Source of the DNA: Acidobacteriota bacterium
Lineage (GTDB): Bacteria; Acidobacteriota; Thermoanaerobaculia; Multivoradales; J023
Reading direction: 5' to 3'
Length of the DNA stretch: 63,358 nt
Assembly (NCBI GenBank): GCA_003697015.1
Contig: RFGL01000065.1
Span: 1 to 63,358 of the forward strand
Below are positions 28,575-42,191 of this stretch, piece after piece (the first letter of the stretch is position 1; each line of letters opens with the position of its first letter). The notes below the pieces were generated by a model, which was given only the letters and a program-made list of their open reading frames with translations, made no database searches and was not told the DNA's origin. The position numbers and the translations under genes were made by a program.

Positions 28575-29459
28575 TCATCCGGCGAGACGTCCGATGCGCT
28601 CCCCCAGGCGGTCGAAGCCGAGCTCGGCGATCAGCGGCTCGACGCGCTGCGGTTCGGCGCGGCGCCGGCGCAGGCCCTCGACCTCGACGGCGGCCGGCTT
28701 GTCGGTCGCCACCGTCGCCAGGCGGCGCGACAGGAAGGCCGCCTCGCGCTGCGCTTCGAGCTTCGGTGCCAGGGTCTTGGCGCCGCGGATCGGCAGGCGG
28801 GCGACGGCGCCGAGGTCGGCGTAGATGGCGTCGAGGTCGGGGAAGGCCTGGAGCAGGGCCGCCGCCGTCTTCTTGCCCACCCCGCGCACCCCGGGGATGT
28901 TGTCGACGCTGTCGCCGGCCAGCCCCAGGTAGTCGGTGATCTGCTCCGGGCGAACGCCGAACTTGGCCTCCACCTCCGCCGGCCCGAAGCGCTCGTCGCG
29001 GGCGTAGTCCCACAGCGACACCCGCGGGCCGACCAGCTGGGCGAGGTCCTTGTCCGAGGTGATGATCACCACCTCGTGACCCTGGGGCTCGAGGCCGGCG
29101 ACCAGGCCGCCGATCAGGTCGTCGGCCTCGTAGCGCTCGTCGACGTAGCAGGCGATGCCGAGAACCTCGCCGAGGGCATGGCACCAGCCGAGCTGATCCT
29201 CGAGCTCCTTCGGCGGCAGCTCCCGTTGGGCCTTGTACGGCGGGTAGATCTCGTTGCGAAAGCTCGAATTCAAGCTGCGGTCGAAGGCCAGGGCGAGGTG
29301 GCTCGGCGCCACCTCCTCGAGCAACTTGACCAGGAAGCCGCCGAAGCCGTAGGCCGCGTTCGCCGGCCGTCCGTCCGGGGTGGTGACGTCCTCCGAGACC
29401 GAGAAGTAGGCGCGGAAGATGTAGGGACTGGCGTCGATCAGATAGACGGTCTGTGGCAT
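28575..29459 (-). CDS. 5'-3' exonuclease / flap endonuclease (Pol I N-terminal-domain-like)
   Basis: Track ORF trimmed to ATG 29459 (MPQTVYLIDASPYIFRAYF). Also YKAQR, YEADDLIG, SDKDLAQL and the H3TH motif GDSVDNIPGVRGVGKKTA. Confidence 0.85.
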   Translation of the reverse strand: MPQTVYLIDASPYIFRAYFSVSEDVTTPDGRPANAAYGFGGFLVKLLEEVAPSHLALAFDRSLNSSFRNEIYPPYKAQRELPPKELEDQLGWCHALGEVLGIACYVDERYEADDLIGGLVAGLEPQGHEVVIITSDKDLAQLVGPRVSLWDYARDERFGPAEVEAKFGVRPEQITDYLGLAGDSVDNIPGVRGVGKKTAAALLQAFPDLDAIYADLGAVARLPIRGAKTLAPKLEAQREAAFLSRRLATVATDKPAAVEVEGLRRRRAEPQRVEPLIAELGFDRLGERIGRLAG

Positions 29460-29516
29460 GCTGGCGGCAGTTTCGCTCAAGCCCCCCCGGCGGGTCAACC
29501 GCCGGCGTTCTGCACC

Positions 29517-30602
29517 TCAGCGGTCCGTCGCCGAGCTGCGCAGAAGCTCCTGCAGACGCCGGCCCATCGCTTCGAGGGCGGCCAGGTCGGTGGGCTCGTC
29601 GGGCTCCAGGGGGAGGGCGACGAGCTGTTGCTCGGGGGGCAGGAGGGCGCGCAGGGCGTCGACGCCGCGGGCGTGGCGCTCGCCGAGCCAGGCGAAGAGC
29701 TGGCGGCCGTCGCGCTCGGCGGCGGAGCTCCCCTCCGCTCCGCCGTCGAAGCGGGGGTGGACGCGGTTGACCACCAGCGGCCCGAGACGCCACCCCGCAG
29801 CCTTGAGCCGGCGGGCGAAGAAGAGGGTGTCGGGGATCCGCGCCTCCCCCGGTCCAGCGACCAGCAGGAAGTGCGCGTCGGGGGAAGCCAGCAGGTTCTC
29901 CACCGCCTGAGCGCGCTGGCGGAAGCCGTCGAAGAGGGGCTCGAAGGCGCGGAAGAATTCCGACATGTCGCGCAGCAGCTGCAAGCCGACGACGCGGTCG
30001 AGAAAACGCTCCAGGCCGCGGCCGATGAAGCCCAGGCGGCGGCCGCCGGGCTGCAGGTGGCCGTCCTCGTCGAACCACGGCTTGAGAGCGATCTTGAGCG
30101 CCCCGGAGTCGAGGAAGCTGACGATCCGCTGCGGCGCCTCCAGGAAATCGATCGCCTGACGGGTCGGCGGCGTGTCGAGGATCACCCGGTCGTAACGCCG
30201 TTCCCGCGCCACCTCGTAGAGACGCTCGACCGCCATGTATTCGAGGATGCCGCCGAGGTGGCCGGCGAGATGGTCGTAGTAGGGATTGCCCAGGATGCGG
30301 TCGCGGGTGGCGTCGTCGGGGGCGTAGCGGGCGACCAGACGATCGAAGGTCTTGCGCGGATCGAGCAGGCTGGCGTGGAGGCTTCCCGGCGCATCGTACG
30401 GCACCGCCACCTCTTCGCCGTGGGCCGCGGCGCCGACGCCGAGGGCGTCTTTGAGGCGCAGGGAGGGGTCGAAGGTCATCACCAGAGTGCGGTGGCCGGC
30501 GCGCGCCGACAGCAAGCCCAGGGCCGCCGCCAGGGTGGTCTTGCCGACGCCGCCGGCGCCGACGCAGACCAGAAACGGCGGCCGCCCTGCCCGGAGATCC
30601 AT
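29517..30602 (-). CDS. ArsA/Get3-like ATPase (second gene of a pair)
   Basis: Track ORF 29517..30773 trimmed to ATG 30602 (ATGA overlap with the upstream stop). MDLRAGRPPFLVCVGAGGVGKTTLAAALG P-loop. Confidence 0.75.
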   Translation of the reverse strand: MDLRAGRPPFLVCVGAGGVGKTTLAAALGLLSARAGHRTLVMTFDPSLRLKDALGVGAAAHGEEVAVPYDAPGSLHASLLDPRKTFDRLVARYAPDDATRDRILGNPYYDHLAGHLGGILEYMAVERLYEVARERRYDRVILDTPPTRQAIDFLEAPQRIVSFLDSGALKIALKPWFDEDGHLQPGGRRLGFIGRGLERFLDRVVGLQLLRDMSEFFRAFEPLFDGFRQRAQAVENLLASPDAHFLLVAGPGEARIPDTLFFARRLKAAGWRLGPLVVNRVHPRFDGGAEGSSAAERDGRQLFAWLGERHARGVDALRALLPPEQQLVALPLEPDEPTDLAALEAMGRRLQELLRSSATDR

Positions 30603-31513
30603 CACGCCGCCCCCCTTGGCCCCAGCAGCACCGCCTCGAGCCGCTCTTGGAGAGCGCCGATCAACGCCGGCCCGCGATCGATCGGCAAAAGCGGCAGCTC
30701 CACCTTCGGCCCCTGCCAGTCCCGCTCCAGCCGCGCCAGCTCGTCCTCGTTGATCCGCCGCCGGCGGCGCCACAGCTCGAGCAGCGGATCGCCGGCGCCG
30801 GCGGCGTCCGGCGGCAGGGGCGGGTAGAGGCCGTTGGTGATCAGCAGGTCCGGCTGGCGGCCGAAACGCTCGGCCAGGGCCTGGCGCAGCTCCAGGGCCT
30901 CCTGCACCGGCATCTCCTCCGCCAGGGTGACGATCACCAGCCCGGCGTCGTCGGGATCGGCGACGAAGTCGGCCCCCTGCTGCGCCAGGTGGTGGAAGGG
31001 GCCGTCGGTGATCGCCTCGGCGAAGAGCCGCGGTGCGGTCAGCAGGTAGATGCCGTGGCCGGTCGCCGGCGCGTCGAGAATGACCGTGTCGATGCGCGGG
31101 CGGGAGAAGGCCTGGCCGCTCACCACCCGCAGGCAGTGACCGATGATCGCCATCTCCTGCAGCCCCGGCGCCCCCTCGACGAAGCGCTGGTAGACCGGGC
31201 TCTCCTTGACCCGCCGTGCCAGCATGGGGATCGGCACCTTTTCGTCGACCAGCCAGTCGACCACCGCCTTGGGCTTGAGGTTCTGCAGGTAGAGGTCGGC
31301 CGCCACCCGGGTCACCTCGCCGCCGGAGGGAGGCACGTCGAGCAGCTGGTGGAGGTTCTCCCGCGGATCGACCTCGAGCACCAGGGTGCGTCGCCCGCGC
31401 GCCGCCAGGCTGCGGCCGAGCGCCGCGGTCATGGCGCTCTTGCCCACTCCCCCCTTGCCGGTCACCACCAGCAGGCGCCGGCTCTTCAGTCGCTGATAGA
31501 GGTCCATGCTCAA
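30602..31513 (-). CDS. ArsA/Get3-like ATPase (first gene of a pair)
   Basis: 303 aa with RLLVVTGKGGVGKSAMTAALG P-loop and DAPATGHG motif. Start is either TTG 31513 or ATG 31507. Confidence 0.75.
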   Translation of the reverse strand: MSMDLYQRLKSRRLLVVTGKGGVGKSAMTAALGRSLAARGRRTLVLEVDPRENLHQLLDVPPSGGEVTRVAADLYLQNLKPKAVVDWLVDEKVPIPMLARRVKESPVYQRFVEGAPGLQEMAIIGHCLRVVSGQAFSRPRIDTVILDAPATGHGIYLLTAPRLFAEAITDGPFHHLAQQGADFVADPDDAGLVIVTLAEEMPVQEALELRQALAERFGRQPDLLITNGLYPPLPPDAAGAGDPLLELWRRRRRINEDELARLERDWQGPKVELPLLPIDRGPALIGALQERLEAVLLGPRGAA

Positions 31514-32145
31514 TCGAAGTCCACGCCCGGCCCGCGCAGCGCCGCGATGCCCTGGACGACGAGCACCATGCCGAAGCCCAGGAGCAGCAGGCCGCAGGCG
31601 CGAAGCGCCCTACGATACCAGCGTGCGTCGAGATGGTGGCGGCCGCGGGCGACGCCGGCGGCGACGGCGATCTTGCTCCCCACCAGGCCGGCGTAGAAGA
31701 GGCCGACGAAGCCCGCCGTCAGCGCCGCCCCCCGGCCGCGCCACAGGGCCACCACCTGCGGCCCGAGGACGCCGAGCCAGAAGAGCCACGGATGGGGGCT
31801 CAGGGCGTTGACCATCACCCCGCGCCACAGATCGCGCGGCCCTCCGCCGCCACCCGCCGGCCGCGGCTCGGCGCTGCCCGCCCGCCGCAACACGCCGGCT
31901 CCCAGGTAGGCGGCGAAGAGGCCACCCCCCACCCCGAGGCCGGCGAGCGCCGCCGCCGGCAGACCGGCGAGCAACCACAAACAGGCGGCGACGATCGGCA
32001 CGTCCGTCACCAGCGGCGCGCTCGCTACCCGCAGCCCGGCACCAAACCCCCGTTCGAGAGTCGCCGTCAGCACCAGGGTCAAGAGCGGCCCCGGGCTGAT
32101 CCCGGCCGACAGGCCGAGGGCAAGAGCGAAGAAGAGCGCATCCAT
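31510..32145 (-). CDS. LysE/RhtB-family amino-acid exporter
   Basis: 211 aa. Begins MDALFFALALGLSAGISPGPLLTLVLTATLERGF; multi-TM. Confidence 0.8.
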   Translation of the reverse strand: MDALFFALALGLSAGISPGPLLTLVLTATLERGFGAGLRVASAPLVTDVPIVAACLWLLAGLPAAALAGLGVGGGLFAAYLGAGVLRRAGSAEPRPAGGGGGPRDLWRGVMVNALSPHPWLFWLGVLGPQVVALWRGRGAALTAGFVGLFYAGLVGSKIAVAAGVARGRHHLDARWYRRALRACGLLLLGFGMVLVVQGIAALRGPGVDFD

Positions 32146-32244
32146 GGTCGGTCAACGGCGCCGGATCGTAGCACCCATGGGACGACGGCACCCCATCCCC
32201 GCCTCTGCGTCACTAGGTGCCGAGCTGATAGAGTCGCCGCCGCG

Positions 32245-33492
32245 ATGCCCCTCACCAAGCTCGAATCGCGCTACTTCCGCAGCCTCTACGAGGTCGATCT
32301 GGCCTTCAAGCCGATCACCGTCGTCATCGGTCCGAACGGCAGCGGCAAGTCCAACGTATTGAAGGCGTTGCGCTTCCTCTACGACGCCGTCGCCGGGGAC
32401 GTGAGCGACTGGCGGCGTTACGACGCCCTGATCGACGATCTACCCTGGTACGGCGTCGGCGACGAAGGCGAGCGCCCGGCCCGGATCGCCCTGACCATCG
32501 AGGTCGACGCCGCCGGATGTTCATTGTGTCCGCTGCGCTACGAGACGGACTTCACGGCGGCCGACTACTTCCGGGTTGGCCAGGAGTCACTCACGGCGGG
32601 CGCCGCCGAGGATCGCTCGATTCTCTTCCGCCGGGAAGGCGACGTGATCGAGCAATGGATCAACCGTCGCGGCAGAGCGCTCAAACGCGCCGCCAAGGCG
32701 ACGGCCCGATCGCCGCGCAACCTGACCCTGCGCGACGAGGGCCCCAGCCCGAGTTTCCCGGGACCTGAGGTCATCCATAGGGAAATCGCCGGCTGGCGTT
32801 TTTTCGAAGTCAATCCGCGGGCAGCGCGCCGGGCTTCCGCCGTCCCCGAGATTCCCGAGGAGATCCCTCCCCTGGCGGCGGATGCCTCCAACCTCAGCGC
32901 TTTCCTTTACGCGCTCTATCGCCTGTCGGCGGCGGACTACGACGCGGTGATCGACGCCACCAGCCGGGCGATCGAGTTGCCGCAGAAAATCCTGGTCGAG
33001 CACGACGCGAACCGCGCCGACGTCGACTCCCCCCTCTGGCGCGGCACCGACGCCCGCTACGCCTTTATCGAGACGCCCTTCGGCGAGAATCGGCCCGTGC
33101 CGCCCGACAGCATCTCCGACGGCACCATCCGCTACCTCGCCCACATGGCGCTGCTTCTCGGCGACCCCAGCGTCACCCTGGCCTGCCTCGAAGAGCCCGA
33201 CAGCGGCCTCCACCCGCGCCTCATGTACCACCTCGCCGACGCCATGCGCCTCGCCGTCGGCAGCGGCGATCCCGCCGTCGAGATCGACCTGCCGCGGGTC
33301 TTGATCACCACCCACAGCCCCGAGCTTCTCGACTGCTTCGACCTTGCCGAGGAGACCGACTACCTCCAGGTCTACGTCGCCGAGCGCGGCGAGCACGGCG
33401 AGACGATCTTGACCTCCGTCACCGCTGCCGAGTTCGCCCCCTGGCTCGAACGCTATCGCCTGGGGGAGGCGGTGCGGCGGCACTTCGTTTGA
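32245..33492 (+). CDS. ABC/SMC-like AAA ATPase (AAA_21/AAA_15-type, OLD/AbiL/PARIS-class ATPase)
   Basis: Track ORF 31633..33492 trimmed to ATG 32245. Walker A VVIGPNGSGKSNVLKAL, SISDGTIRYLAHMALLLG signature-like segment, Walker B TLACLEEPDSGLHP, H-loop LITTHSPELL. Confidence 0.8.
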   Translation: MPLTKLESRYFRSLYEVDLAFKPITVVIGPNGSGKSNVLKALRFLYDAVAGDVSDWRRYDALIDDLPWYGVGDEGERPARIALTIEVDAAGCSLCPLRYETDFTAADYFRVGQESLTAGAAEDRSILFRREGDVIEQWINRRGRALKRAAKATARSPRNLTLRDEGPSPSFPGPEVIHREIAGWRFFEVNPRAARRASAVPEIPEEIPPLAADASNLSAFLYALYRLSAADYDAVIDATSRAIELPQKILVEHDANRADVDSPLWRGTDARYAFIETPFGENRPVPPDSISDGTIRYLAHMALLLGDPSVTLACLEEPDSGLHPRLMYHLADAMRLAVGSGDPAVEIDLPRVLITTHSPELLDCFDLAEETDYLQVYVAERGEHGETILTSVTAAEFAPWLERYRLGEAVRRHFV

Positions 33493-34214
33493 CGACTTGG
33501 GGGGCGGGAGACGTGGCGCTTCATATCTTCGTCGAAGACCGCGAAACCCGCGCCTACGAGATCCTTGCCCGGCGGGCGCTTGAAGCCGCCGGTGCCGGCG
33601 ATAAGGTAGACCGTCTCCGGGCTTCGAAGATCGACCTGCGCGACCTCATCACCACCGACGGCCTGCGCGATCTCCTGAGCCGCGCCGTCAGGAGCGGTTA
33701 CGACTGCGTGATGTTCGTCATGGATCAAGAAGCGCGATCGAGCTCGCCCGAAAGGCCGCGCCTGCTGGCACGGTTCAAGAAGTCATTCACCGAATTGTGC
33801 TCCTATCAGGCGAAGCTGCCGGAGCGAGATCCCATGCGCCGCGCGAGGATCATCCGCGTCGTCTGCCGGCGCTGCCTGGAGGGTTGGCTCGCCTCTGACC
33901 CGCAAGCCGTCGTCGACGCGGTTCGCGGGGTGCGCGGTACGGACTATTCTCCGAGTTACAGACAAACGGAGCACCTCGAACCCAAGAAGGCCGGCGAGCA
34001 GATCGTCCGCTGGATCCGGGAAGTGGGGCACCGGCTCGGGCGCCGGGATCTGCAACGAACAACTCTGCGCAACGTCAAGTCGCGCAGCGCCGACATCGCC
34101 GAGCAACTCGATCCGCAGCGTGGTCGCTCCTACAACGCCAGCCTGGCCTATTTCTTCGACATGGTGCACTGCCAGAGGTCCGGTTGCGATCACCCCTTCC
34201 CGGAGCGAGGATAG
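33489..34214 (+). CDS. Toprim-like DUF4276/RloB-like protein (partner of the ABC-type ATPase)
   Basis: 241 aa from TTG 33489 (TTGA overlap with the upstream stop); the alternative start is GTG 33513. Acidic pattern LHIFVEDRETRAY ... CVMFVMDQEA ... RCLEGWLASDPQAV resembles the E ... DxD ... FE-W-L layout of DUF4276/RloB proteins. By-eye only. Confidence 0.55.
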   Translation: MTTWGAGDVALHIFVEDRETRAYEILARRALEAAGAGDKVDRLRASKIDLRDLITTDGLRDLLSRAVRSGYDCVMFVMDQEARSSSPERPRLLARFKKSFTELCSYQAKLPERDPMRRARIIRVVCRRCLEGWLASDPQAVVDAVRGVRGTDYSPSYRQTEHLEPKKAGEQIVRWIREVGHRLGRRDLQRTTLRNVKSRSADIAEQLDPQRGRSYNASLAYFFDMVHCQRSGCDHPFPERG

Positions 34215-34218
34215 GCGG

Positions 34219-35358
34219 ATGGCGAATCCCTTTGGCGAGATCGAGAAGGCCCTCGCCGTGCTGGGGCAGGAAGCCGAGGTGATCCCCGCCGTGGGTCCCG
34301 CCCGCCTCGATCTCGCTGCACCCGACGCTGAGGAGACCTACGACCGCATGACCAGCGGCGAAGCAGCCACGAAGGGCATCTGGGAAACGGAACCGGGTAA
34401 GGGCCTATACCGGCCTCTGCGTCCGATCCACCGCCGCCAGGGCAGCGCCCTACGCCACTTCGTCGCCGGTACCGCTCGGGTCTACTACCTGGGGACCGTG
34501 CTCGAGCGGGAACGCTCCTCGCCCATTCAGTTTGCGCAGATCGGTGCGGCGGCGATCCGCCGGCGAGACGACGGCACGGTGAGGCCGGCTTCAGCCGGCA
34601 TGCGCGTGGAGAATCTCTTGATCCTCAACGGCATTCTCTCCCCGCAACTTCTCGAGCGCTTCCAGCACGCCTTGCCCGCTGGAACGCGGCTGATCACCAC
34701 CTCCGCTCGCAGCGGCGGGTCGGCGGAGCCGCGGTCCCGCGGTGCGCACGCCGCCAACGAAGCGATGCGCGCTCTCCAGCAGAGCATCCTTGAGCAGCTG
34801 CAGGAGGATCCGCCCCCGGTCCTGGACGGCAGCCTGGGCAACGAATACTTCAATTGGACGTCCGGCAGCTTGCTGGCGGTGCTCAAGAGCTTTCGCCAGG
34901 AAAGCCGGTTCACGATCGGACGCGGTATTCGCCCGCGAGACCAGCCCACCCTCTTCCGCCTGCTCAACGATCTACCACCCGAGTCCCGAACCGTCGTCTT
35001 CCCGCGGATCACGGCCGAGCACCCGGACGGCAGCGTCGTCTTCTGGTACGTGCGCCTGCATGCGTTGTCCCCCGCCATGCGCACCTCTCCGCTGATGGGC
35101 GTGATCAAGGTCGAGATGCCCAATGCCGGCGCCCAGTGCGTTCCGACCGAGCTCGTAGACCGCTTGAGCGCACGCCTGCTTGCTGAACGTACCGTCGCCC
35201 CGTACGGCAGCGGAGCGCGCTGGCATGCGCATCTGTATCCTCTCTATCTTGCCGGCCGGCTGGTGCGCAACCGTTTCCATTCCGAGGAAGTGATCCGTTC
35301 CGGGCTGCGATGGCCTGCGACTGCCCCCGCCGCGAGTAAGGATGGTGCTCAGCGATGA
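34219..35358 (+). CDS. NurA-like (RNase H-fold) protein, partner of the HerA-like ATPase
   Basis: Track ORF 34120..35358 trimmed to ATG 34219 (GAGG 8 nt upstream, 4 nt after the previous stop). PPVLDGSLGNEYF matches the NurA llDGSL motif. Beta-rich segments VVFWYVRL, GVIKVEM and a C-terminal YPLYLAGRLVR. ATGA-coupled to the downstream HerA-like gene. Confidence 0.55.
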   Translation: MANPFGEIEKALAVLGQEAEVIPAVGPARLDLAAPDAEETYDRMTSGEAATKGIWETEPGKGLYRPLRPIHRRQGSALRHFVAGTARVYYLGTVLERERSSPIQFAQIGAAAIRRRDDGTVRPASAGMRVENLLILNGILSPQLLERFQHALPAGTRLITTSARSGGSAEPRSRGAHAANEAMRALQQSILEQLQEDPPPVLDGSLGNEYFNWTSGSLLAVLKSFRQESRFTIGRGIRPRDQPTLFRLLNDLPPESRTVVFPRITAEHPDGSVVFWYVRLHALSPAMRTSPLMGVIKVEMPNAGAQCVPTELVDRLSARLLAERTVAPYGSGARWHAHLYPLYLAGRLVRNRFHSEEVIRSGLRWPATAPAASKDGAQR

Positions 35359-37022
35359 CCAAGGAAGCCAAAGAGACCATCGGTCGCGCGTCGGCGACCG
35401 AGCAGCGCCCGAATACGGCAGACAGATTCCAATTCTGGATCAAGAAGGGCGGCCGCATCAACCCCTTCGACATTGTCAGCGCCGAGCATCACGGAGGAAG
35501 CGAGACCTTCGGGCTGGTCACGGCCATCCGCCATCTCACGGACTCCTCGAGTCACCTCGCCAACTACATCTCGAACGATTTCGGCGAGCGCCTGATCGAG
35601 GAGCCGCAGACTTTGCGGCAGGGGACCAACGTAGCAGAGGCCACGGTACTGGCCAACACCCACGACGTCTACATGCCCGTGCAGAACGAGGCGACCGTCT
35701 CGTTTGCCGACGAGGAGTCCATCCACCGGGCGCTGGGCATCGACGGCATACCCGAGGAGCGACGCGTCCCCGCTGGGGTGGTGGAGATGAGCAACGGCGC
35801 CGAGGCGGTAGCGTATCTCGATCGCCATTTCGTCCTCGGCCCGGAGGCCGGACACGTCAACATTTCGGGCATCTCCGGCCTCGCTACCAAGACCTCCTAC
35901 GCCATGTTCCTCATCCAGTCGCTTCTGCAAAGAACCGAGAATGAGGAAGTTCCCGCGACGATCCTGCTGAACGTCAAGTACGACGATTTGCTGAGCCTGC
36001 ACGAACCGGCCGAGCTGAGCGACGAGGAGAAAGAAAAATGGCGACGGATGGGTCTCGAGCCGAAGCCATGGCCGCGCGACCGGGTGCACTACCTCCTGCC
36101 GAACGGTCCCCGGGGCAATCCCAATTCGTACGTCACCCTCGCCGACCTCCCCCAAGCGCAGATCTATGGCTACGAGCTCAACCATTGTGCAAGCAAGCTC
36201 GATCTTCTCTTGTCCGACATTCCGGATGCCGGCGGTACGCTCGAATCGGTCATCGGCGAGGTAGAAAGCGGACTCACCTCTAACGACAGGCTCTGGCAGT
36301 CGGTCGAGACCTGGGCAGATCTGCTCAACGGACCGCCGCTGGTCCAGCAGGGGATGCCGCAGAAGCTGCGCAGCATCCACGCCAGCAGCGTCGGCCGGTT
36401 CTTGCGCCTCATGCGCTCGATGGTCAGGACGCGCCAGTCCGGCATCTTCGTCGACCGCCTGTCGAACAAGATGACGACGATCGCCGAGACCTTGGCGGAC
36501 CTGCAGGCAGGACACACCTACGTCATCGACGTGGCCCGGCTCAAGGCCGCGGAGCAGACCCTGGTCTTCGGCGACGTGCTGCGGACGGTCTACGAGCTGT
36601 GTTCGGGCGAGTTCGAGTCGGAGATCGACGACTCGGAGCCGCCGAAGAAAGTGATCATCTTCGTCGACGAGCTGAACAAGTACGCACCCGCCCGGCAGGA
36701 CCAGGCCGCGTCGCCGATCCTGACGCAAGTTCTCGACATCGCGGAACGCGGCCGTTCATTCGGCATCATCCTCTTCTCCGCCCAGCAATTCCTGAGCGCC
36801 GTACACCAGCGGGTGACGGGCAACGCGGCGACCAAGATCCTCGGCCGCAGCGACAGCGCAGAAATCAGTCAGCCCAGCTATCGATCCCTAGAGCAGGACG
36901 TCAAGAGCTATCTGACGCGGCTCGACAAGGGCGAGCTCATCCTCTCCCACCCGATCTATCGCCAACCGATCAAGATCCGCTTCCCCCGATTGCCCTACCG
37001 GCAGGGAAGAGAGCACGGCTGA
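35355..37022 (+). CDS. HerA-like FtsK/HerA-superfamily ATPase (HAS-barrel + ATPase, COG0433-like)
   Basis: 555 aa with an N-terminal barrel-like segment (RFQFWIKKGGRINPFDIVSAEHHGGSETFGLVTAI). P-loop region HVNISGISGLATKTSYAMFL, Walker B KKVIIFVDELNKYAP, arginine-finger region AERGRSFGIILFSAQQ...ATKILGRSDSAE. Confidence 0.7.
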   Translation: MTKEAKETIGRASATEQRPNTADRFQFWIKKGGRINPFDIVSAEHHGGSETFGLVTAIRHLTDSSSHLANYISNDFGERLIEEPQTLRQGTNVAEATVLANTHDVYMPVQNEATVSFADEESIHRALGIDGIPEERRVPAGVVEMSNGAEAVAYLDRHFVLGPEAGHVNISGISGLATKTSYAMFLIQSLLQRTENEEVPATILLNVKYDDLLSLHEPAELSDEEKEKWRRMGLEPKPWPRDRVHYLLPNGPRGNPNSYVTLADLPQAQIYGYELNHCASKLDLLLSDIPDAGGTLESVIGEVESGLTSNDRLWQSVETWADLLNGPPLVQQGMPQKLRSIHASSVGRFLRLMRSMVRTRQSGIFVDRLSNKMTTIAETLADLQAGHTYVIDVARLKAAEQTLVFGDVLRTVYELCSGEFESEIDDSEPPKKVIIFVDELNKYAPARQDQAASPILTQVLDIAERGRSFGIILFSAQQFLSAVHQRVTGNAATKILGRSDSAEISQPSYRSLEQDVKSYLTRLDKGELILSHPIYRQPIKIRFPRLPYRQGREHG

Positions 37023-37031
37023 CGGCGGCGG

Positions 37032-38285
37032 ATGAGCGACGCCTGCCCACCTCTCCCCCCACGGTTCGAGTACCGGCTCGATCTCGCCGGCCACGTAACG
37101 CCGAAGCTGCTGAAGAACGAGCCCATCCACCGCTGGTTCTATTTCCAACACAGCTTCTCGCCCCAGCTCGTCGACCTGCTCTTCGATCGTTGGCAGGTGA
37201 CGCGAGGATCGGTCGTCGTCGATCCATTCGTCGGCGCGGGGACGACCCTCGTCTGTGCCAAACAGCGTGGCGTCGAGTCCGTCGGCGTCGACGTCTCTCC
37301 CCTCGCCGTTCTCGCCAGCAACGCCAAGATCGCGACGTACGACGTCACGTCCCTGGTCGATGCGCTCTCAACGGTGGCGCGGTTCGTTCGATCGAATGGG
37401 ACCGTCGATCTGTCGAGACCGCAACGTCTGCAAAGAGCCTTCACCGACGCCGAATTCGACGTCCTCTTTCGTCTGCGCCGGGCCATCTTGCGCCAAAAAA
37501 TGCCTGAACGCGACCTTCTGCTCCTGGCGCTGCTCAGGACCCAGCGGGAGATTTCGCGGGCCGTGCCCGACGGCGGCTGGTTTCGCTGGCGCGAGCGACG
37601 TTCGTCCGAGACGACGATCTGGCCGCGATTCAAGCGTTGGGTCGAGCAGTGGCTGAGAGACCTTTCGGCTCGGCCTCCGGCGGCCGTTCATTGCCGAGCA
37701 TGCACGGGTGATGCGCGGCGACTCGGAGACGTGCTGGCGGGTGCTTCAGGGCGTCGGCAACGCTGCCGTGCGATCGTCACCTCTCCGCCCTACCCGAACC
37801 GCCATGACTACAGCCGGATCTTCCAGATCGAGCTCTTGACCCTCGGGGTGACGGAGGGGGAGATCCGTCACTTGCGACAGACGTCATTGCGCTCGCACGT
37901 CGAAGCGAGGCCACCGGCCCGCTCGCCCCAACCCCGCGCGCACGCGGCGCCCTGGGCCGATCTGCTCGCGAGCATCCCGGTGGACGGGGTCGACTCGAGG
38001 GTGAAGTCGATGCTCGAAGGCTACTTCGAAGACATGCATGCGGTGCTGAGGTCGTGCTGGGACGCGTTGACGCCCGGTGGCAAGATGGCCCTCGTGGTCG
38101 GCAACGTCCGTCATGGCGGCGTGATGATTCCCGTCGACGAGCTCCTGACCTCCCTCGCTCAGAATCTCGGCTTTTCCTTTGAAGCGGGATGGGTCGCCAG
38201 GTTGCGCGGCAACAGCGCGCAGCAGATGGGCCGCTTCGGTCGCCGACCAGCACGGGAAAGCGTCTTGCTCTTCGAGAAGGTTTGA
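37032..38285 (+). CDS. DNA methyltransferase (N6-adenine/N4-cytosine type; motif I before motif IV; SPPY)
   Basis: 417 aa. Motif X/I-like IHRWFYFQHSFSPQLVDLL...VVVDPFVGAGTTLVCAKQRGVESVGVDV at residues ~31-88. Catalytic motif IV AIVTSPPYPNRHDY at ~247-260. Confidence 0.75.
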   Translation: MSDACPPLPPRFEYRLDLAGHVTPKLLKNEPIHRWFYFQHSFSPQLVDLLFDRWQVTRGSVVVDPFVGAGTTLVCAKQRGVESVGVDVSPLAVLASNAKIATYDVTSLVDALSTVARFVRSNGTVDLSRPQRLQRAFTDAEFDVLFRLRRAILRQKMPERDLLLLALLRTQREISRAVPDGGWFRWRERRSSETTIWPRFKRWVEQWLRDLSARPPAAVHCRACTGDARRLGDVLAGASGRRQRCRAIVTSPPYPNRHDYSRIFQIELLTLGVTEGEIRHLRQTSLRSHVEARPPARSPQPRAHAAPWADLLASIPVDGVDSRVKSMLEGYFEDMHAVLRSCWDALTPGGKMALVVGNVRHGGVMIPVDELLTSLAQNLGFSFEAGWVARLRGNSAQQMGRFGRRPARESVLLFEKV

Positions 38286-38788: not shown

Positions 38789-39466
38789 ATGGGAAACGCC
38801 GCCGCAGCCAGGAACGCCAGCGAGGCCGTCAACCACACCAAGGAGAACCTGCTCGACGCCGCCGAGGTGCTCTTCGCCGAGCACGGGGTGGCGGGGGCCT
38901 CGCTGCGCGCCATCACCGCCCGCGCCGGCGTCAACCTGGCCGCGGCCCACTATCACTTCGGCTCGAAGGAAGCGCTGTTGCGGGCGGTGATGGCCCGCCG
39001 CCTGCGGCCGATCAACGCCCGCCGGCTGGCGCTCCTCGACGCCTACGAGGCGCAGCCGGCGGCGGAGCGCTCATTGGTCGAGCTGCTCCGGGCGTTCGTC
39101 GACCCGGTGGTGCGCTTCGGCCGCGAGTTGCCGGACGAGGGACGCGCCTTCGCTCAGCTCTGCGGCCGCGCCATGAACGCGCCGGACGACGTCCTGCGCT
39201 CGATCCTGATCGACGAGCTGGGGGAGGTGGTGCGCCGTTTTCTCCCCGCCTTCGCCCGGGCCCTGCCGGCGTTGCCGCGGCGGGAGCTGCTGTGGCGGGT
39301 CCACTTCACGGTCGGCGCGATGGCCCACGCCATGGCCGGCCGGCGGCTGATCGAAGCGGTCAGTGGCGGCCTCTGCGACACCCGCGACGTCGACGGCACG
39401 GTCGAACGGCTGGTGCGCTTTCTCGCCGCCGGCTTCGCTGCGCCGGCGGCGGAGGACTCGCCGTGA
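38789..39466 (+). CDS. TetR/AcrR-family transcriptional regulator
   Basis: 225 aa with HTH region TKENLLDAAEVLFAEHGVAGASLRAITARAGVNLAAAHYHFGSKEALL. Confidence 0.9.
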   Translation: MGNAAAARNASEAVNHTKENLLDAAEVLFAEHGVAGASLRAITARAGVNLAAAHYHFGSKEALLRAVMARRLRPINARRLALLDAYEAQPAAERSLVELLRAFVDPVVRFGRELPDEGRAFAQLCGRAMNAPDDVLRSILIDELGEVVRRFLPAFARALPALPRRELLWRVHFTVGAMAHAMAGRRLIEAVSGGLCDTRDVDGTVERLVRFLAAGFAAPAAEDSP

Positions 39467-40989
39467 GCGCCCTGCGCCGCCGTCCGTCGCCGGCCCTGCT
39501 GCCGGCTTTGCTGCTGCTGGCGGCATGCGCCAGCGCGCCGCCGGCGTCGCCGCCGGTCCTCGACGGCGAGATCCCCGAGGCCTGGCAGGCCGCGGGCGAC
39601 GAGGCCACCGCCGCCGCCCTCCCCGCCGGCCAGCCCTGGTGGACGGCCTTCGACGATCCCGAGCTGACGGCGTTGATCGACGAGGCCCTGGCCCACAACC
39701 ACGACCTGCGCGCAGCGGCGGCGCGGGTCGAGGCTGCCGCCGCCCAGGCGCGCATCGCCGGCGCGGCGCTCAAGCCGCAACTCGACGGCCGCGTCGACGC
39801 CAGCCGCCGGCAGCAGGTCTTCGTCGGCCTGCCGATTCCCGGCACCGGCAACGTGCTGTCGTCGCGTTCGAGCTCGGTCGGGCTGAGCCTGAACGTCAGC
39901 TGGGAAGCCGACCTCTGGGGCCGCCTGAAGGCCGGACGGGCGGCGGCGGCGAGCGATCTCCAGGCCGCTGCCGCCGATCTCGAGGGGGCGCGGCTGTCCC
40001 TCGCCGCCCAGACCGCCAAGGCCTACTTCGCCCTCGCCGAAGCGACGCGCCAGGTGGAGCTGGCCGAGGCCACTGCCGCCAGCCGGCGGGCCGCCACCGA
40101 GCGCGCCGAAAGGCGCTACCGCCGCGGCCTCCTGCCGGCCCTCGACGTCCGCCTGGCGCGCGCCAGCGAGGCCCAGGCAGCGAGCGCGCTCGCCCTGCGA
40201 CGGCGCCAGCGGGAGGGCATCGAACGCCAGCTCGAGGTGCTCCTCGGTCGCTATCCGTCCGGCGACCTCGATCGACCGGGTGGCGCGTTGCCGGCGCTGC
40301 CGGGAGCGGTGCCCGCCGGGCTGCCGGCCGCCCTCGTCACCCGCCGCCCCGACCTGGCGGCGGCCGAGCGGAGAATGGCCGCCGCCGGCTGGCGCGTCGC
40401 CGAGGCCCGCCGCGCCCTCTACCCGCGGCTCAGCCTGACCGCCGGCGGCGGCACCACCAGCGACGACGTCCGCGACCTGCTCGACGAGGATTTCTCGGTG
40501 TGGAACGTCGCCGGCAATCTGCTGCGACCGATCTTCCAGGGCGGCCGCCTGCGGGCGGCGGTGGAGCTCGCCGAGGCCGGTCGCGAGCGGCGGCTGGCCG
40601 AGTACGCCGCCGCGGCGTTGCGCGCCTTCGCCGAAGTCGAGACCGCGCTTGAGAACGAGCGCCGGCTGGCGGCGGAGGAAGCGGCCTTGGAGAAGCTGGT
40701 GGAGGAGTCCCGCGGCGCCCTGCGCCTGGCTGAGGAACGCTACTTCGCCGGCGCCGCGGGCGGCGGTTATCTCGCCATCCTCGACAGTCAGCGGCAGCTC
40801 TTCGCCGCCGAGAGCCAACTCCTCGCCGCCCGCCGGCAGCGCCTCGACAACCGCGTCGACCTCTACGTCGCCCTCGGCGGCGGCTTCACCACCCGCAGCG
40901 ACGACGCGGCCGGCGATCCCGGCGACCTCGACGACCAGGCGGACGGCCGGCCCAGTCACCACGGCGGGCCGGCGGAGGCCCGACCATGA
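39463..40989 (+). CDS. RND efflux outer-membrane factor lipoprotein (NodT family)
   Basis: Track ORF 39292..40989. GTG start at 39463 (GTGA overlap with the TetR stop), lipobox LLLLAACAS, WWTAFDDPELTALIDEALAHNHDLRAA. Confidence 0.85.
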   Translation: MSALRRRPSPALLPALLLLAACASAPPASPPVLDGEIPEAWQAAGDEATAAALPAGQPWWTAFDDPELTALIDEALAHNHDLRAAAARVEAAAAQARIAGAALKPQLDGRVDASRRQQVFVGLPIPGTGNVLSSRSSSVGLSLNVSWEADLWGRLKAGRAAAASDLQAAAADLEGARLSLAAQTAKAYFALAEATRQVELAEATAASRRAATERAERRYRRGLLPALDVRLARASEAQAASALALRRRQREGIERQLEVLLGRYPSGDLDRPGGALPALPGAVPAGLPAALVTRRPDLAAAERRMAAAGWRVAEARRALYPRLSLTAGGGTTSDDVRDLLDEDFSVWNVAGNLLRPIFQGGRLRAAVELAEAGRERRLAEYAAAALRAFAEVETALENERRLAAEEAALEKLVEESRGALRLAEERYFAGAAGGGYLAILDSQRQLFAAESQLLAARRQRLDNRVDLYVALGGGFTTRSDDAAGDPGDLDDQADGRPSHHGGPAEARP

Positions 40990-42191
40990 AAACGAAGCTG
41001 ATCCTGCCCCTCGTGATCCTCCTCCTCTCCGCCGCCGGCACCCTCGCCCTGGTGCGCTCGCGCAAGCCGGTCGAGACCCGGCCCGACGTGCCCCAGACGC
41101 CCCTGGTGCGGGTGGTGGTGGCCGAACGCCAGGACGTGCCCCTCGACGTCCACGCCCAGGGCACCGTCCTGCCGCGCACCGAGACCACCCTGGTGGCCCA
41201 GGTCGCCGGCCAGGTGATCGCCGTCAGCGAGTCCTTCGTCAGCGGCGGGTTCTTCGCCCGCGGCGAGCTGCTGGTCAAGCTCGATCCGCGCGACCACGAG
41301 CTCGCCCTGCGGCGGGCCGAGGCCCAGGTCGCCCAGGCCGAGCTGCGCCTGACCCAGGAACGGGCCGAGGCGCAGGTGGCGCGCGAGGAGTGGCAGGCCC
41401 TGGGGGGACGTGAGGCCTTCGGCGCCGATCCGGACCCGCTGGTGTTGCGCCAGCCCCAGATCGCCCAGCTCGAGGCCACCCTGGCCGCCGCCCGGGCGGA
41501 GGTCGAGCAGGCGCGCTTGAACCTCGAGCGGACCGAGATCCGCGCCCCCTTCGCCGGCCGCCTGCGCAGCAAGCTGGTCGACGTCGGCGCCTACCTGATG
41601 CCCGGCTCCCCGGTCGCCACCATCCACGCCATCGACTACGCCGAGGTCAAGCTGCCGGTAGCCGACGACGAGCTCGCCTTTCTCGAGCTGCCCGTCGCCT
41701 ACCGCGACGGCGCCGCCGGCCCCCGGCCGGAGGTGACCCTGAGCGCCCGCTTCGCCGGCCGCAGCCACAGCTGGAGCGGCCGCATCGTACGCAGCGAGGG
41801 GGAGCTCGACCCGCGCAGCCGCATGCTCAATCTGGTCGCGCGGATCGAGGATCCCTACGGCCGCAGCGGACGGCCGCCGCTGGTGGTCGGCCAGTTCGTC
41901 GACGCGATCATCGCCGGCCGCGTCGCCGAGGGGGTCTTCGTGCTGCCGCGCGCCGCCCTGCGCCGCGGCGAAGAAGATCACGTGCTGGTGGTCGGCGACG
42001 ACGAGCGGCTGCGCAAGCGGCCGGTGGAGGTGGTGCGCATCGCCGGCGAGACGGTGATCGTCGGCCGCGGGCTGGAAGAGGGCGAGCGGGTCTGCCTGTC
42101 GAACCTCGAGGTGGTGGTCGACGGCATGCCGGTCCGGGTGGTGGAGGAGGAGCAGCCGGCGGTTGGAGCGCCGGCGGAGGACAGGTCATGA
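40986..42191 (+). CDS. RND efflux periplasmic adaptor (MFP/HlyD family)
   Basis: 401 aa with an N-terminal anchor, coiled-coil hairpin and beta-barrel segments. ATGA-type overlap with both neighbours. Confidence 0.85.
   Translation: MKTKLILPLVILLLSAAGTLALVRSRKPVETRPDVPQTPLVRVVVAERQDVPLDVHAQGTVLPRTETTLVAQVAGQVIAVSESFVSGGFFARGELLVKLDPRDHELALRRAEAQVAQAELRLTQERAEAQVAREEWQALGGREAFGADPDPLVLRQPQIAQLEATLAAARAEVEQARLNLERTEIRAPFAGRLRSKLVDVGAYLMPGSPVATIHAIDYAEVKLPVADDELAFLELPVAYRDGAAGPRPEVTLSARFAGRSHSWSGRIVRSEGELDPRSRMLNLVARIEDPYGRSGRPPLVVGQFVDAIIAGRVAEGVFVLPRAALRRGEEDHVLVVGDDERLRKRPVEVVRIAGETVIVGRGLEEGERVCLSNLEVVVDGMPVRVVEEEQPAVGAPAEDRS

What the first reader, a model, noticed from the sequence alone, without database searches (positions are those of the whole stretch)
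34219..37022. NurA-like/HerA-like pair with apparently non-canonical catalytic motifs
Seen: HerA-family proteins normally carry a GxxGSGK[ST] P-loop, but this protein reads ISGISGLATKTS, with Lys-Thr kept and the glycine register shifted. Walker B (IIFVDELNKY) and the arginine-finger region look intact. In the NurA-like partner, the first beta-strand reads HFVAGTARVYYLG where I expect the NurA catalytic DG[ST]. The C-terminal helix reads YPLYLAGRLVR where I recall an acidic or His residue. The central llDGSL motif is present (VLDGSLG). Inference: the NurA-like subunit may be a partially or fully inactivated nuclease serving as a scaffold. Cleavage could then be contributed by the upstream Toprim-like protein. 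The ATGA translational coupling argues for a stoichiometric complex, as in archaeal HerA-NurA.
Basis: partly seen in the sequence, partly recalled or inferred. Interest (0 to 1): 0.7.

Follow-up and report, generated by a model that had tools for sequence, protein, structure and literature searches.

The report
Dead NurA nuclease beside active HerA
This is a bacterial NurA-HerA "DNA motor plus nuclease" gene pair inside a restriction-modification-like defence cassette; the motor's odd ATP-binding loop is normal for its clade, but the nuclease has naturally lost three of its four catalytic residues and seems to be kept as a non-cutting partner.

Summary
ORFs 34219-35358 and 35355-37022 are a bacterial-type NurA-HerA pair joined by an ATGA overlap.

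**HerA.** Its Walker A (GISGLATKTS) is not a defect. It is invariant in 69/69 homologues. It has the same register as Deinococcus radiodurans HerA ([10 protein letters not shown]), whose K175/T176 bind ADP/Mg in a crystal structure.

**NurA.** It is truly degenerate. The only near-universal carboxylates of the family are D83/E187/D203/E346, each present in at least 98 of 103 representatives. The window protein reads A-Q-D-G there. Every other column that is at least 95% conserved is kept. D83A matches the engineered nuclease-dead D58A/D49A mutants of archaeal NurA.

**Relatives.** Only three other sequences among about 300 homologues are similarly dead. All four sit directly downstream of a DUF4276-like (Toprim-superfamily) gene. 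An AAA_21 ATPase gene precedes it in the two loci whose contigs reach that far. Two dead relatives share the same substitutions and evolve with pN/pS 0.32, like active NurAs (0.31). This argues for a selected pseudo-nuclease rather than a decaying gene.

**Cassette.** The pair belongs to a widespread cassette family for which I found no description: Type IIG-like enzyme and/or AAA_21-DUF4276, then NurA, HerA and a methyltransferase. Cleavage by the DUF4276 protein is plausible but unproven.

The parts
32239..33492 (+). AAA_21/AAA_15 ABC-type ATPase (417 aa), first gene of the cassette; Walker A GPNGSGKS is present
   Evidence: Pfam AAA_21 1.1e-31 and AAA_15 3e-15. PADLOC HEC-01A 5e-34, AriA 2e-32, mad3 2e-15. 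NCBIfam MADS3 scores only 63 bits against a cut-off of 420.
33489..34214 (+). DUF4276-like small protein ('p241'; 241 aa from the TTG start, 233 aa from GTG 33513 as in the NCBI record). Conserved acidic residues follow strand 1 (FVED), strand 3 (MDxE) and strand 4 (CLEGW).
   Evidence: No hit at default thresholds. 6/6 homologues hit PF14103 DUF4276, best E 6e-5, window 0.1, all below the gathering score. AF2 pLDDT 92, four-stranded alpha/beta domain. No PDB fold match better than E=0.03. DUF4276 is placed in the Toprim superfamily by PMC12065111.
34219..35358 (+). NurA-like protein (379 aa), bacterial type, with three of four catalytic-type carboxylates lost
   Evidence: Foldseek hits 7f6d_G E=5e-12 and 1zup E=7e-9, then Argonaute PIWI domains. 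Family profile against drNurA gives E=9e-4. Pfam NurA passes the gathering score in close homologues P0026/P0030/P0032 (26-30 bits) but the window protein scores 11 bits.
34465..34467 (+). Codon 83, GCC = Ala, where the family has the strand-1 catalytic Asp of the DGS motif
   Evidence: D in 78/79, 117/120 and 99/103 homologues. Codon read. The equivalent D58A (S. solfataricus) and D49A (T. kodakarensis) mutations abolish nuclease activity on linear DNA.
34777..34779 (+). Codon 187, CAG = Gln, where the family has Glu (in helix 174-193 of the model)
   Evidence: E in 98/103 representatives. Lost in all four degenerate sequences.
34825..34827 (+). Codon 203, the retained Asp of VLDGSLG (end of strand 201-203)
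   Evidence: D in 98/103 representatives. Retained in the window but lost in P0046, P0153 and P0076.
35254..35256 (+). Codon 346, GGC = Gly, where the family has Glu (C-terminal helix 340-350)
   Evidence: E in 100/103 representatives. It aligns with the Glu of drNurA ...ALEQAM....
35355..37022 (+). HerA-like hexameric ATPase/translocase (555 aa), bacterial drHerA type, with all ATPase motifs intact
   Evidence: phmmer against 7f6d_B HerA E=1.5e-35. PADLOC HerA and mad8 4e-10. Departs at only 9 of 190 conserved columns, mostly I/V exchanges, and is not an outlier.
35868..35897 (+). Walker A G172-ISGLATKT-S181 (K179, T180), with Thr instead of Gly before the Lys
   Evidence: GISGLATKTSY is invariant in 69/69 homologues. 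drHerA has [11 protein letters not shown], with K175 on the beta-phosphate and T176 on Mg (PMC9960219).
36654..36683 (+). Walker B IIFVDELNKY (D438, E439)
   Evidence: FVDELNKYAP is invariant in the family. It aligns with drHerA VLDELNKYAP, whose D487/E488 coordinate Mg.
37032..38285 (+). DNA methyltransferase (417 aa; motifs FVGAGTT and TSPPY seen by eye)
   Evidence: Pfam N6_N4_Mtase 1.7e-9. PADLOC MTase_II PDLC03224 4e-60. Lies directly downstream of HerA in about 41 of 80 genome loci. Conservation is ordinary, 4/88 deviations.

Best explanation
The two genes encode a bacterial-type NurA-HerA complex. It is the core of a five-gene, operon-like cassette resembling a restriction-modification system: AAA_21 ATPase, DUF4276-like protein, NurA, HerA, DNA methyltransferase.

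HerA is a competent ATP-driven dsDNA translocase. Its unusual Walker A is the normal one for its clade.

NurA keeps the NurA/RNase H-like fold and every other superfamily-invariant residue. It has lost three of the four carboxylates that would hold the catalytic metals (D83A, E187Q, E346G), so it can no longer act as a two-metal nuclease. It is retained as a non-catalytic partner. By analogy with D. radiodurans NurA-HerA, it would cap the HerA ring, stimulate its ATPase and split the duplex.

Shown here: gene order and overlaps, folds, motif states, the family-wide rarity of the losses, their restriction to loci with a DUF4276-like gene directly upstream (preceded by AAA_21 where the contig extends), and purifying selection on a dead sister lineage.

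Inferred: that the complex still forms. Also inferred, with lower confidence (about 0.3), is that DNA cleavage in this variant comes from the upstream ABC-ATPase/Toprim-like pair, which resembles OLD, PARIS and Mad3-Mad4.
For: - HerA: 7f6d_B E=1.5e-35 with an identical P-loop register. GISGLATKTSY, FVDELNKYAP and RGRS are invariant in 69 homologues. drHerA K175/T176/D487/E488 are functional.
- NurA fold: AF2 pLDDT 78, pTM 0.81. Foldseek gives drNurA 5e-12 and TM1739 7e-9.
- Catalytic tetrad: D83, E187, D203 and E346 are the only near-universal carboxylates in 103 representatives. They lie on strand 1, a helix, strand 4 and the C-terminal helix. The window reads A, Q, D, G.
- Specificity of the loss: 3 of 3 deviations at columns conserved at 95% or more fall in the tetrad (P=0.004).
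- Experimental parallel: the strand-1 Asp-to-Ala mutant is nuclease-dead in archaeal NurAs.
- Selective constraint: NurA is the top outlier of 79 (13/72), while HerA (9/190) and the MTase (4/88) are ordinary.
- Context: the other dead members P0046, P0153 and P0076 all have a DUF4276-like gene directly upstream and a HerA gene downstream. HerA's Walker A is intact in L081 and L115, the two loci where it can be read; the L082 fragment ends before it.
- Association: after dereplication, 5/9 loci with the upstream pair are degenerate against 1/47 others (Fisher p=1.8e-4).
- Selection: P0046 and P0153 share D83R/D203G/G204Q at 65% identity. Their pN/pS is 0.32, against 0.31 +/- 0.05 for active pairs of similar divergence.
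- Operon: 4-nt overlaps or short gaps and no + strand terminator inside the cluster.
Against: - No biochemical data exist for this family.
- The residue-level equivalence of E187 and E346 with experimentally defined NurA metal ligands rests on conservation and fold topology. Profile alignment to drNurA covers only the C-terminal third.
- The window lineage itself has no close relative (best 47% identity), so purifying selection is shown only for a sister dead lineage.
- NurA in the window has diverged faster than expected from HerA (45.8% against 55.7 +/- 5.7%). That is also what early decay would look like.
- About 20 loci with the same AAA_21/DUF4276 pair keep a canonical NurA.
- The pair occurs alone (L083, L084, L109-L114), so it may be an independent neighbour.
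- Loci with the pair form one clade in the HerA tree, so the association is phylogenetically confounded.
- The DUF4276-like model has no significant PDB match.
Confidence: 0.55

Rival explanations
1. Decaying remnant. The cassette lost its restriction function. This locus has no Type IIG-like gene, unlike most relatives. NurA is in early pseudogenisation after inactivating mutations, perhaps selected to stop self-damage. HerA and the methyltransferase have simply not decayed yet.
For: - The window has no homologue of the ~1,100-aa Type IIG-like gene that flanks NurA-HerA in 58 of 106 loci and most canonical loci with the upstream pair.
- NurA has diverged faster than HerA predicts and deviates at 13/72 conserved columns.
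- A related locus without the Type IIG-like gene (L085) has E187Q plus an apparent HerA frameshift.
- Loss of the nuclease with retention of the methylase is common in R-M systems (general knowledge).
Against: - The ORF is intact and still translationally coupled.
- At the most conserved columns only the catalytic carboxylates are lost.
- The N-terminal region and K223/R257/R334/W335/Y340 are kept.
- HerA and the MTase show normal constraint.
- The dead state persists with pN/pS equal to active NurAs in the P0046/P0153 lineage.
Confidence: 0.28
2. Two independent neighbours. AAA_21-DUF4276 is a self-contained two-gene defence module of the OLD/PARIS/Mad3-Mad4 type. It merely sits next to a NurA-HerA-MTase module in a defence island, and NurA inactivation is unrelated to it.
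For: - The pair occurs without NurA-HerA in L083, L084 and L109-L114, in a conserved acidobacterial context.
- The window's DUF4276-like protein is closer to those stand-alone copies (55-57%) than to most cassette copies (39-51%).
- NurA-HerA(-MTase) occurs without the pair in most loci.
- Defence genes cluster in islands (general knowledge).
Against: - Fixed order and spacing (AAA, DUF4276-like, NurA, HerA, MTase) in about 25 loci from different phyla and samples.
- In six-gene relatives the pair is inserted between the Type IIG-like gene and NurA.
- All four dead NurAs have a DUF4276-like gene directly upstream.
Confidence: 0.3
3. NurA is still an active nuclease or nickase that uses the remaining D203 and other residues.
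For: S. solfataricus NurA D58A kept nicking activity on circular dsDNA (PMC4641729). D203, K223 and R334 are retained in the window protein.
Against: Three of four near-universal carboxylates are gone and no acidic residue replaces them locally (AGT, ALQQS, LAGRLV). Single strand-1 Asp mutants already abolish activity on linear DNA.
Confidence: 0.07

Closest known systems
Deinococcus radiodurans NurA-HerA end-resection complex (PDB 7F6D; drHerA 7WRW/7WRX)
   Same: Closest solved relatives of both proteins. HerA has the same deviant Walker A register (GISGxATKTS) and the same Walker B (DELNKYAP). NurA is of the bacterial type. The genes are adjacent.
   Different: NurA sequence similarity is marginal (E about 1e-3, 16% identity in the fold alignment). 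The window NurA lacks three catalytic-type carboxylates. The pair here sits in a methyltransferase/ABC-ATPase cassette rather than a repair context.
Archaeal HerA-NurA (S. solfataricus 2YGK/4D2I, P. furiosus 3TAI, T. kodakarensis)
   Same: Hexameric HerA translocase feeding DNA to a NurA dimer with an RNase H-like fold and a strand-1 DGS aspartate. D58A and D49A mutants are nuclease-dead.
   Different: SsoHerA matches only at E=0.05. No archaeal NurA appears among the significant fold hits.
MADS (methylation-associated defence system, mad1-8, P. aeruginosa)
   Same: It combines a methyltransferase (mad2), an AAA_21-type ATPase (mad3), a DUF4276 protein (Mad4, per PMC12065111) and an ATPase whose PADLOC model (mad8) matches part of this HerA. 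Weak PADLOC/NCBIfam hits to mad2, mad3 and mad8.
   Different: MADS has eight genes including a kinase and a specificity subunit. Here MADS3 scores 63 bits against a cut-off of 420. No mad4, mad6 or mad7 hits; mad6-8 are mandatory for detection. No NurA is reported in MADS.
OLD-family / PARIS (AriA-AriB) / Gabija ABC-ATPase plus Toprim nuclease systems
   Same: The upstream pair is an AAA_15/21 ATPase plus a small Toprim-superfamily-like partner. PADLOC AriA 2e-32, GajA 1e-12. DUF4276 is listed among partners of AAA15/21 defence ATPases (PMC11464382).
   Different: The partner is DUF4276-like, not DUF4435 or Toprim_OLD. No nuclease activity or trigger is known. It is fused into a NurA-HerA-MTase operon.
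HerA-based defence systems (SIR2-HerA, DUF4297-HerA)
   Same: A HerA-family hexamer is paired with an effector encoded next to it. PDB 8xau HerA matches weakly (E=0.29).
   Different: The effector fold differs (NurA, not SIR2 or Cap4-like). There is a methyltransferase and a Type IIG-like partner, so discrimination is probably by modification.
Type IIG / BREX-like methylation-based restriction
   Same: Most relatives carry a ~1,100-aa protein matching PADLOC REase_MTase_IIG PDLC03630 over its full length (1611 bits) and, weakly, PglX, plus a second MTase.
   Different: The window locus lacks that gene. No BREX core genes are present. NurA-HerA are not part of any described Type II or BREX system that I could find.

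Membership tests
NurA (RNase H-like nuclease, Pfam PF09376) | NurA/RNase H-like fold | tested here: met
   AF2 model (pLDDT 78, pTM 0.81). Foldseek top hits are drNurA 7f6d_G E=5e-12 and TM1739 1zup E=7e-9, then PIWI domains.
NurA (RNase H-like nuclease, Pfam PF09376) | Score above the Pfam gathering threshold | tested here: not met
   The window protein scores 11.1 bits against 21 (E=0.27). Close homologues P0026, P0030 and P0032 pass at 26-30 bits. The family is a divergent NurA clade poorly covered by Pfam.
NurA (RNase H-like nuclease, Pfam PF09376) | Catalytic strand-1 Asp (DGS) and the other metal-binding carboxylates | tested here: not met
   A83, Q187 and G346 replace D, E and E, which are conserved in at least 98 of 103 representatives. 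D203 is kept.
NurA (RNase H-like nuclease, Pfam PF09376) | Adjacent, co-directional herA gene | tested here: met
   ATGA overlap in the window. A HerA homologue lies next to NurA in all 78 genome loci whose contig extends past NurA; L036 and L080 end too soon.
NurA (RNase H-like nuclease, Pfam PF09376) | Mn2+-dependent nuclease activity | not testable with these tools
   Needs purified protein.
Bacterial-type HerA (FtsK-HerA superfamily, drHerA-like) | Significant sequence similarity to a solved HerA | tested here: met
   7f6d_B E=1.5e-35 in two stretches covering the Walker A and Walker B/C-terminal regions.
Bacterial-type HerA (FtsK-HerA superfamily, drHerA-like) | Walker A Lys-Thr, Walker B Asp-Glu, conserved acidic residue after strand 2, RGRS arginines | tested here: met
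   K179/T180, D438/E439, NVKYDDLL and ERGRS are all present. They are invariant, or nearly so, in 69 homologues. drHerA residue roles come from PMC9960219.
Bacterial-type HerA (FtsK-HerA superfamily, drHerA-like) | Canonical GxxxxGK[ST] glycine before Lys | tested here: not met
   T178 precedes K179. drHerA and all 69 homologues show the same loop, so this feature does not define the bacterial clade.
Bacterial-type HerA (FtsK-HerA superfamily, drHerA-like) | Curated model hit (Pfam, or NCBIfam helicase_HerA) | tested here: not met
   No Pfam family. NCBIfam helicase_HerA scores 17.8 bits against 970; that model is an archaeal equivalog.
MADS (mad1-mad8) | Mandatory MAD6, MAD7 and MAD8, plus a MAD3 equivalog | tested here: not met
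   Only partial mad8 (4e-10), mad3 (2e-15) and mad2 (3e-10) PADLOC hits. No mad4, mad6 or mad7. NCBIfam MADS3 63 bits against 420.
OLD/PARIS-like ABC ATPase + Toprim pair | AAA_15/AAA_21 ABC ATPase | tested here: met
   AAA_21 1.1e-31, AAA_15 3e-15.
OLD/PARIS-like ABC ATPase + Toprim pair | Toprim-fold partner with a conserved Glu after strand 1 and DxD after strand 3 | tested here: inconclusive
   DUF4276 hits are all below the gathering score (window E=0.1, best 6e-5). Invariant E16/D17 and D79/E81 sit at the expected positions. There is no PDB fold match with E below 0.03, and no Toprim structure among the 50 matches shown. The Toprim assignment of DUF4276 is taken from PMC12065111.
Type IIG restriction-modification enzyme | Large fused REase-MTase protein in the locus | tested here: not met
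   Present in 58 related loci (PDLC03630, 1611 bits) but no tblastn hit anywhere in the 63-kb window.

The most novel reading that the evidence does not exclude
A widespread defence family for which I found no description uses a NurA-HerA translocase-nuclease as the effector arm of a methylation-based restriction system (Type IIG-like enzyme plus a second methyltransferase). The NurA profile finds 637 clusters at 50% identity across many bacterial phyla. In one sub-clade that acquired an OLD/PARIS-like ABC-ATPase plus DUF4276 Toprim pair, NurA has been converted at least twice into a pseudo-nuclease that is kept under purifying selection. The cutting role would then have passed to the Toprim protein. 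That would be a natural case of effector replacement inside a molecular machine.
Probability: 0.3. Interest if true: 0.8.

Novelty: new variant of a known kind. Interest (0 to 1): 0.62.

Why it matters
NurA-HerA is studied as a DNA end-resection machine. Its role in bacteria, and any role in defence, is still open.

This locus shows three things.
- The deviant HerA Walker A is a clade signature, not a defect. That is useful for annotation, because no Pfam family reached E<=0.1 for this HerA and the closest NCBIfam model (helicase_HerA) scored 17.8 bits against a cut-off of 970.
- A large bacterial NurA-HerA family is embedded in restriction-modification-like cassettes. This makes a defence role directly testable.
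- Nature has produced nuclease-dead NurA variants that stay under selection next to an intact HerA. They are ready-made separation-of-function alleles. They can be used to ask what NurA does for HerA besides cutting, and whether a neighbouring ABC-ATPase/Toprim pair can take over cleavage.

Tried and rejected
- Pfam, PADLOC, NCBIfam and PDB single-sequence searches of the NurA-like protein gave nothing usable. Profiles (A1, A2) reached drNurA only over the C-terminal third. Residue mapping of D83 and E187 to solved NurAs therefore rests on conservation and topology.
- I used a homologue search on a 107-aa drNurA fragment to build a bridging alignment. It returned only three fragments, so the search was wasted.
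- The J Bacteriol 2015 drNurA-HerA paper is not held.
It was rerun with A1.
- MADS membership was considered and rejected. MANTIS (Gao_RL) was inspected from its abstract and section list only; it has a different four-gene composition.
- Literature searches for a NurA-HerA-methyltransferase defence system found none. Absence from this library does not prove absence from the literature.
- No NurA homologue was found in plasmids, and only distant HerA homologues. Only one IMG/VR contig carries a NurA homologue, so there is no sign of a plasmid- or phage-borne origin.
- Foldseek of the DUF4276-like model found no Toprim or nuclease structure.
- A sequencing or assembly artefact was rejected. There are 13 separate substitutions in an intact ORF, and independent metagenomes hold similarly degenerate relatives.
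- One dN/dS baseline run timed out and was redone.

Full report
**What is there**

The finding covers two + strand ORFs: 34219-35358 (379 aa) and 35355-37022 (555 aa). The start of the second overlaps the stop of the first (cgATGAcc). They are genes 3 and 4 of a tight five-gene block:
- an AAA_21/AAA_15 ABC-type ATPase (32239-33492);
- a 233-241-aa protein (33489/33513-34214);
- the NurA-like gene;
- the HerA-like gene;
- an N6_N4-type DNA methyltransferase (37032-38285).

Gaps between the genes are 0-20 nt. No + strand terminator-like site lies inside the block. G+C falls to 0.65-0.67 across 32-38 kb, against 0.71-0.75 in the four adjacent 2-kb bins. The genes on either side look like housekeeping genes by eye. 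The contig is an Acidobacteria MAG; the NurA-like protein is NCBI D6696_03120.

**HerA**

The protein hits D. radiodurans HerA (PDB 7f6d_B) at E=1.5e-35. The printed alignment shows that drHerA carries the same loop: [20 protein letters not shown] against the window's GHVNISGISGLATKTSYAMF.

In 69 homologues recovered from genome loci, GISGLATKTSY is invariant. So are FVDELNKYAP (Walker B), NVK..DLL and RGRS.

In the drHerA crystal structures, K175 pairs with the beta-phosphate, T176 and D487/E488 coordinate Mg, and K175 or Walker B mutants lose ATPase activity and resection (PMC9960219).

But this is the normal, functional Walker A of the clade. The window HerA departs from only 9 of 190 columns that are at least 90% conserved, mostly I/V exchanges, and it is not an outlier.

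**NurA: fold and family**

Single-sequence searches found nothing. However, 590 homologues exist, with the best non-self match at 45-47% identity, and a few carry Pfam NurA. Rescanning gave 26-30 bits for P0026, P0030 and P0032 against a threshold of 21, and 11 bits for the window protein.

An AF2 model built on 31 sequences (pLDDT 78, pTM 0.81) has three significant Foldseek hits on two structures: D. radiodurans NurA (7f6d_G, E=5e-12) and the NurA-like TM1739 (1zup chains A and B, E=7e-9 and 3e-8). Argonaute PIWI domains follow. The family profile reaches drNurA at E about 1e-3 over the C-terminal third. It is a bacterial-type NurA.

**NurA: catalytic residues**

The family consensus is canonical (RYFLDGSARTYF ... 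WLVLDGSLG ... YPIxLAERVIK), whereas the window reads RHFVAGTARVYY ... PPVLDGSLG ... YPLYLAGRLVR.

A profile search of 1.84 billion representatives found 637 relatives. In 103 full-length members, including the window protein and the two degenerate proteins P0046 and P0076 added by hand, the only near-universal carboxylates are D83 (99), E187 (98), D203 (98) and E346 (100). In the model they sit on strand 80-96, helix 174-193, strand 201-203 and helix 340-350. That is the strand-1 / helix / strand-4 / C-terminal-helix order of RNase H-like active sites. This topological reading is inference from established knowledge of the fold.

The window protein has A, Q, D, G at these four positions. The equivalent strand-1 Asp-to-Ala mutants are nuclease-dead on linear DNA: S. 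solfataricus D58A in VAIDGGS (PMC4641729) and T. kodakarensis D49A (PMC12977600).

Against 97 non-degenerate representatives, the window departs from 3 of 19 columns that are at least 95% conserved, and all three lie in the tetrad (P=0.004). Among 79 genome homologues it is the top outlier: 13/72 deviations, next 6, median 1. It has also diverged more than its HerA predicts, at 45.8% identity against 55.7 +/- 5.7%.

**Other dead NurAs and their context**

Only three further sequences lack the tetrad: P0046 (R-S-G-E), P0153 (R-V-G-E) and P0076 (A-V-N-E).

Their contigs all show a homologue of the small upstream protein directly before NurA and a HerA gene directly after it. HerA's GISGLATKTSY is intact in L081 and L115; the 136-aa L082 fragment ends before that loop. 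P0076's contig also includes the AAA_21 ATPase.

In 80 genome loci the NurA-HerA pair is adjacent wherever the contig continues past NurA (78 loci). The methyltransferase follows in about half. The AAA_21/small-protein pair is present in only three. A metagenome scan with the small protein added about 20 more loci with the same five-gene order, nearly all with a canonical NurA.

After dereplication at 80% NurA identity, degenerate NurAs make up 5/9 loci with the pair and 1/47 without it (Fisher p=1.8e-4). The caveat is that loci with the pair form one clade in a HerA NJ tree. In that tree the window is sister to L115 (P0153), and L081 (P0076) groups with the canonical L007. This suggests at least two losses, but the events are not independent samples.

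**Is the dead NurA decaying or kept?**

P0046 and P0153 share the same replacements (D83R, D203G, G204Q) at 65% identity, so the loss predates their split. Their genes give pS 0.67 and pN 0.215, a ratio of 0.32. Fifty-five active NurA pairs of similar divergence give 0.31 +/- 0.05.

The dead protein has therefore stayed under ordinary purifying selection in that lineage. Combined with the selective nature of the window's losses, this favours a retained non-catalytic partner over a pseudogene. The window's own branch cannot be tested for lack of close relatives.

**The upstream pair**

The small protein has no hit at default thresholds. All six homologues tested match DUF4276, below the gathering score (best E 6e-5), and several database relatives carry a precomputed PF14103 hit.

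Its AF2 model is confident (pLDDT 92). It shows a four-stranded alpha/beta domain with invariant acidic residues after strands 1, 3 and 4. No PDB structure matches better than E=0.03.

A published analysis places DUF4276 and RloB in the Toprim superfamily and names Mad4 of MADS as a homologue (PMC12065111). DUF4276 is also listed among partners of AAA15/21 defence ATPases (PMC11464382).

The closest relatives of the window's copy (55-57%) are stand-alone AAA_21/DUF4276-like pairs in Acidobacteriota, between a PMT_2 gene and a carbamoyltransferase gene. The pair is thus an autonomous module that has been recruited upstream of NurA.

Whether it supplies cleavage here remains inference. I put that at about 0.3.

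**The wider system**

Clustering of all ORFs in the fetched loci revealed a ~1,085-1,110-aa protein next to NurA-HerA in 58-65 loci. It matches PADLOC REase_MTase_IIG PDLC03630 end to end (1611 bits), Pfam N6_Mtase/Eco57I/MmeI_Mtase and, weakly, PglX.

Most canonical loci with the pair are in fact six-gene: Type IIG-like, AAA_21, DUF4276-like, NurA, HerA, MTase. Three loci instead insert an uncharacterised gene, an AAA_22/NACHT-like ATPase and a PIN protein.

The window has no Type IIG-like gene. The family therefore looks like a methylation-based restriction system with NurA-HerA as a processive effector. I found no description of such a system. PADLOC and NCBIfam have no specific models for its NurA or HerA. 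MADS shares part types (mad2, mad3, Mad4, mad8-like) but is a different eight-gene system, and its thresholds are not met.

**Verdict**

The most likely reading (0.55) is an active HerA with a selected, catalytically dead NurA partner inside an RM-like cassette. The main rivals are simple decay of a remnant lacking the Type IIG-like gene (0.28) and coincidental adjacency of two modules (0.3). The second rival is compatible with the dead-partner claim but not with the hand-over.

It is a new variant of known kinds: NurA-HerA, HerA-based defence, and ABC-ATPase/Toprim pairs. Interest is moderate to high because it offers natural separation-of-function alleles and a testable defence role for bacterial NurA-HerA.

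Noticed in passing
L001:3690-7022 (also L022:6741-9998 and about 58 other loci): A ~1,085-1,110-aa Type IIG-like restriction-methyltransferase lies directly next to NurA-HerA in most related loci. It matches PADLOC PDLC03630 (1611 bits, full length) and Pfam N6_Mtase/Eco57I/MmeI_Mtase. It is absent from the window.
   Followed up: partly
L001:6959-9993 (same in L003, L011): Three extra genes sit between the Type IIG-like gene and NurA: a 353-aa protein with no family, a 402-aa AAA_22/NACHT/BrxD-like ATPase and a 259-aa PIN-domain protein. This is a third architecture of the cassette.
   Followed up: partly
L109:5810-7693, L111:5845-7693, L113:4176-5989: The closest relatives of the window's DUF4276-like protein (55-57% identity) occur as stand-alone AAA_21 + DUF4276-like pairs. 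In several Acidobacteriota they share a conserved neighbourhood: PMT_2 glycosyltransferase upstream in two of the three loci (four genes further upstream in L111), and carbamoyltransferase and a GDSL-like gene downstream.
   Followed up: partly
L085:7846-9512; also L053:11354-12939 and L096:6594-8250: HerA is split into two overlapping tblastn pieces, in different frames for L085. These are apparent frameshifts or sequencing errors. L085 also has E187Q in NurA and no Type IIG-like gene, so it may be a decaying copy.
   Followed up: no
window 32000-38000: G+C drops to 0.65-0.67 across the five-gene block, against 0.71-0.75 in the four adjacent 2-kb bins. This is consistent with a horizontally acquired island. 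No integrase or tRNA was looked for.
   Followed up: no
window 33489-33513: The start of the DUF4276-like gene is ambiguous. TTG at 33489 overlaps the ATPase stop (241 aa). GTG at 33513 gives the 233-aa product in the NCBI record, and homologues begin near that point.
   Followed up: partly
P0165, P0189 (representatives): Two further NurA-family representatives lack tetrad residues. P0165 (D-R-S-R) looks frameshifted in its C-terminal half. P0189 (D-E-N-K) is a distant member. Their contexts were not examined.
   Followed up: no
L036:10001-11086: This NurA shows Lys at the E346 position, but the contig ends at the gene's end, so this may be an alignment or edge artefact.
   Followed up: no
L117:6001-7140 (IMGVR_UViG_3300045912_000930): This is the single IMG/VR contig encoding a NurA homologue (37% identity), possibly a prophage-borne copy. 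It was not inspected.
   Followed up: no
window 28575-31513 (- strand) and 38789-45376 (+ strand): By eye from the ORF translations only: a 5'-3' exonuclease-like ORF and two tandem ArsA/GET3-like P-loop ATPases lie upstream. A TetR-like regulator and an outer-membrane factor/MFP/RND efflux operon lie downstream. Many long antisense ORFs are high-G+C artefacts.
   Followed up: no
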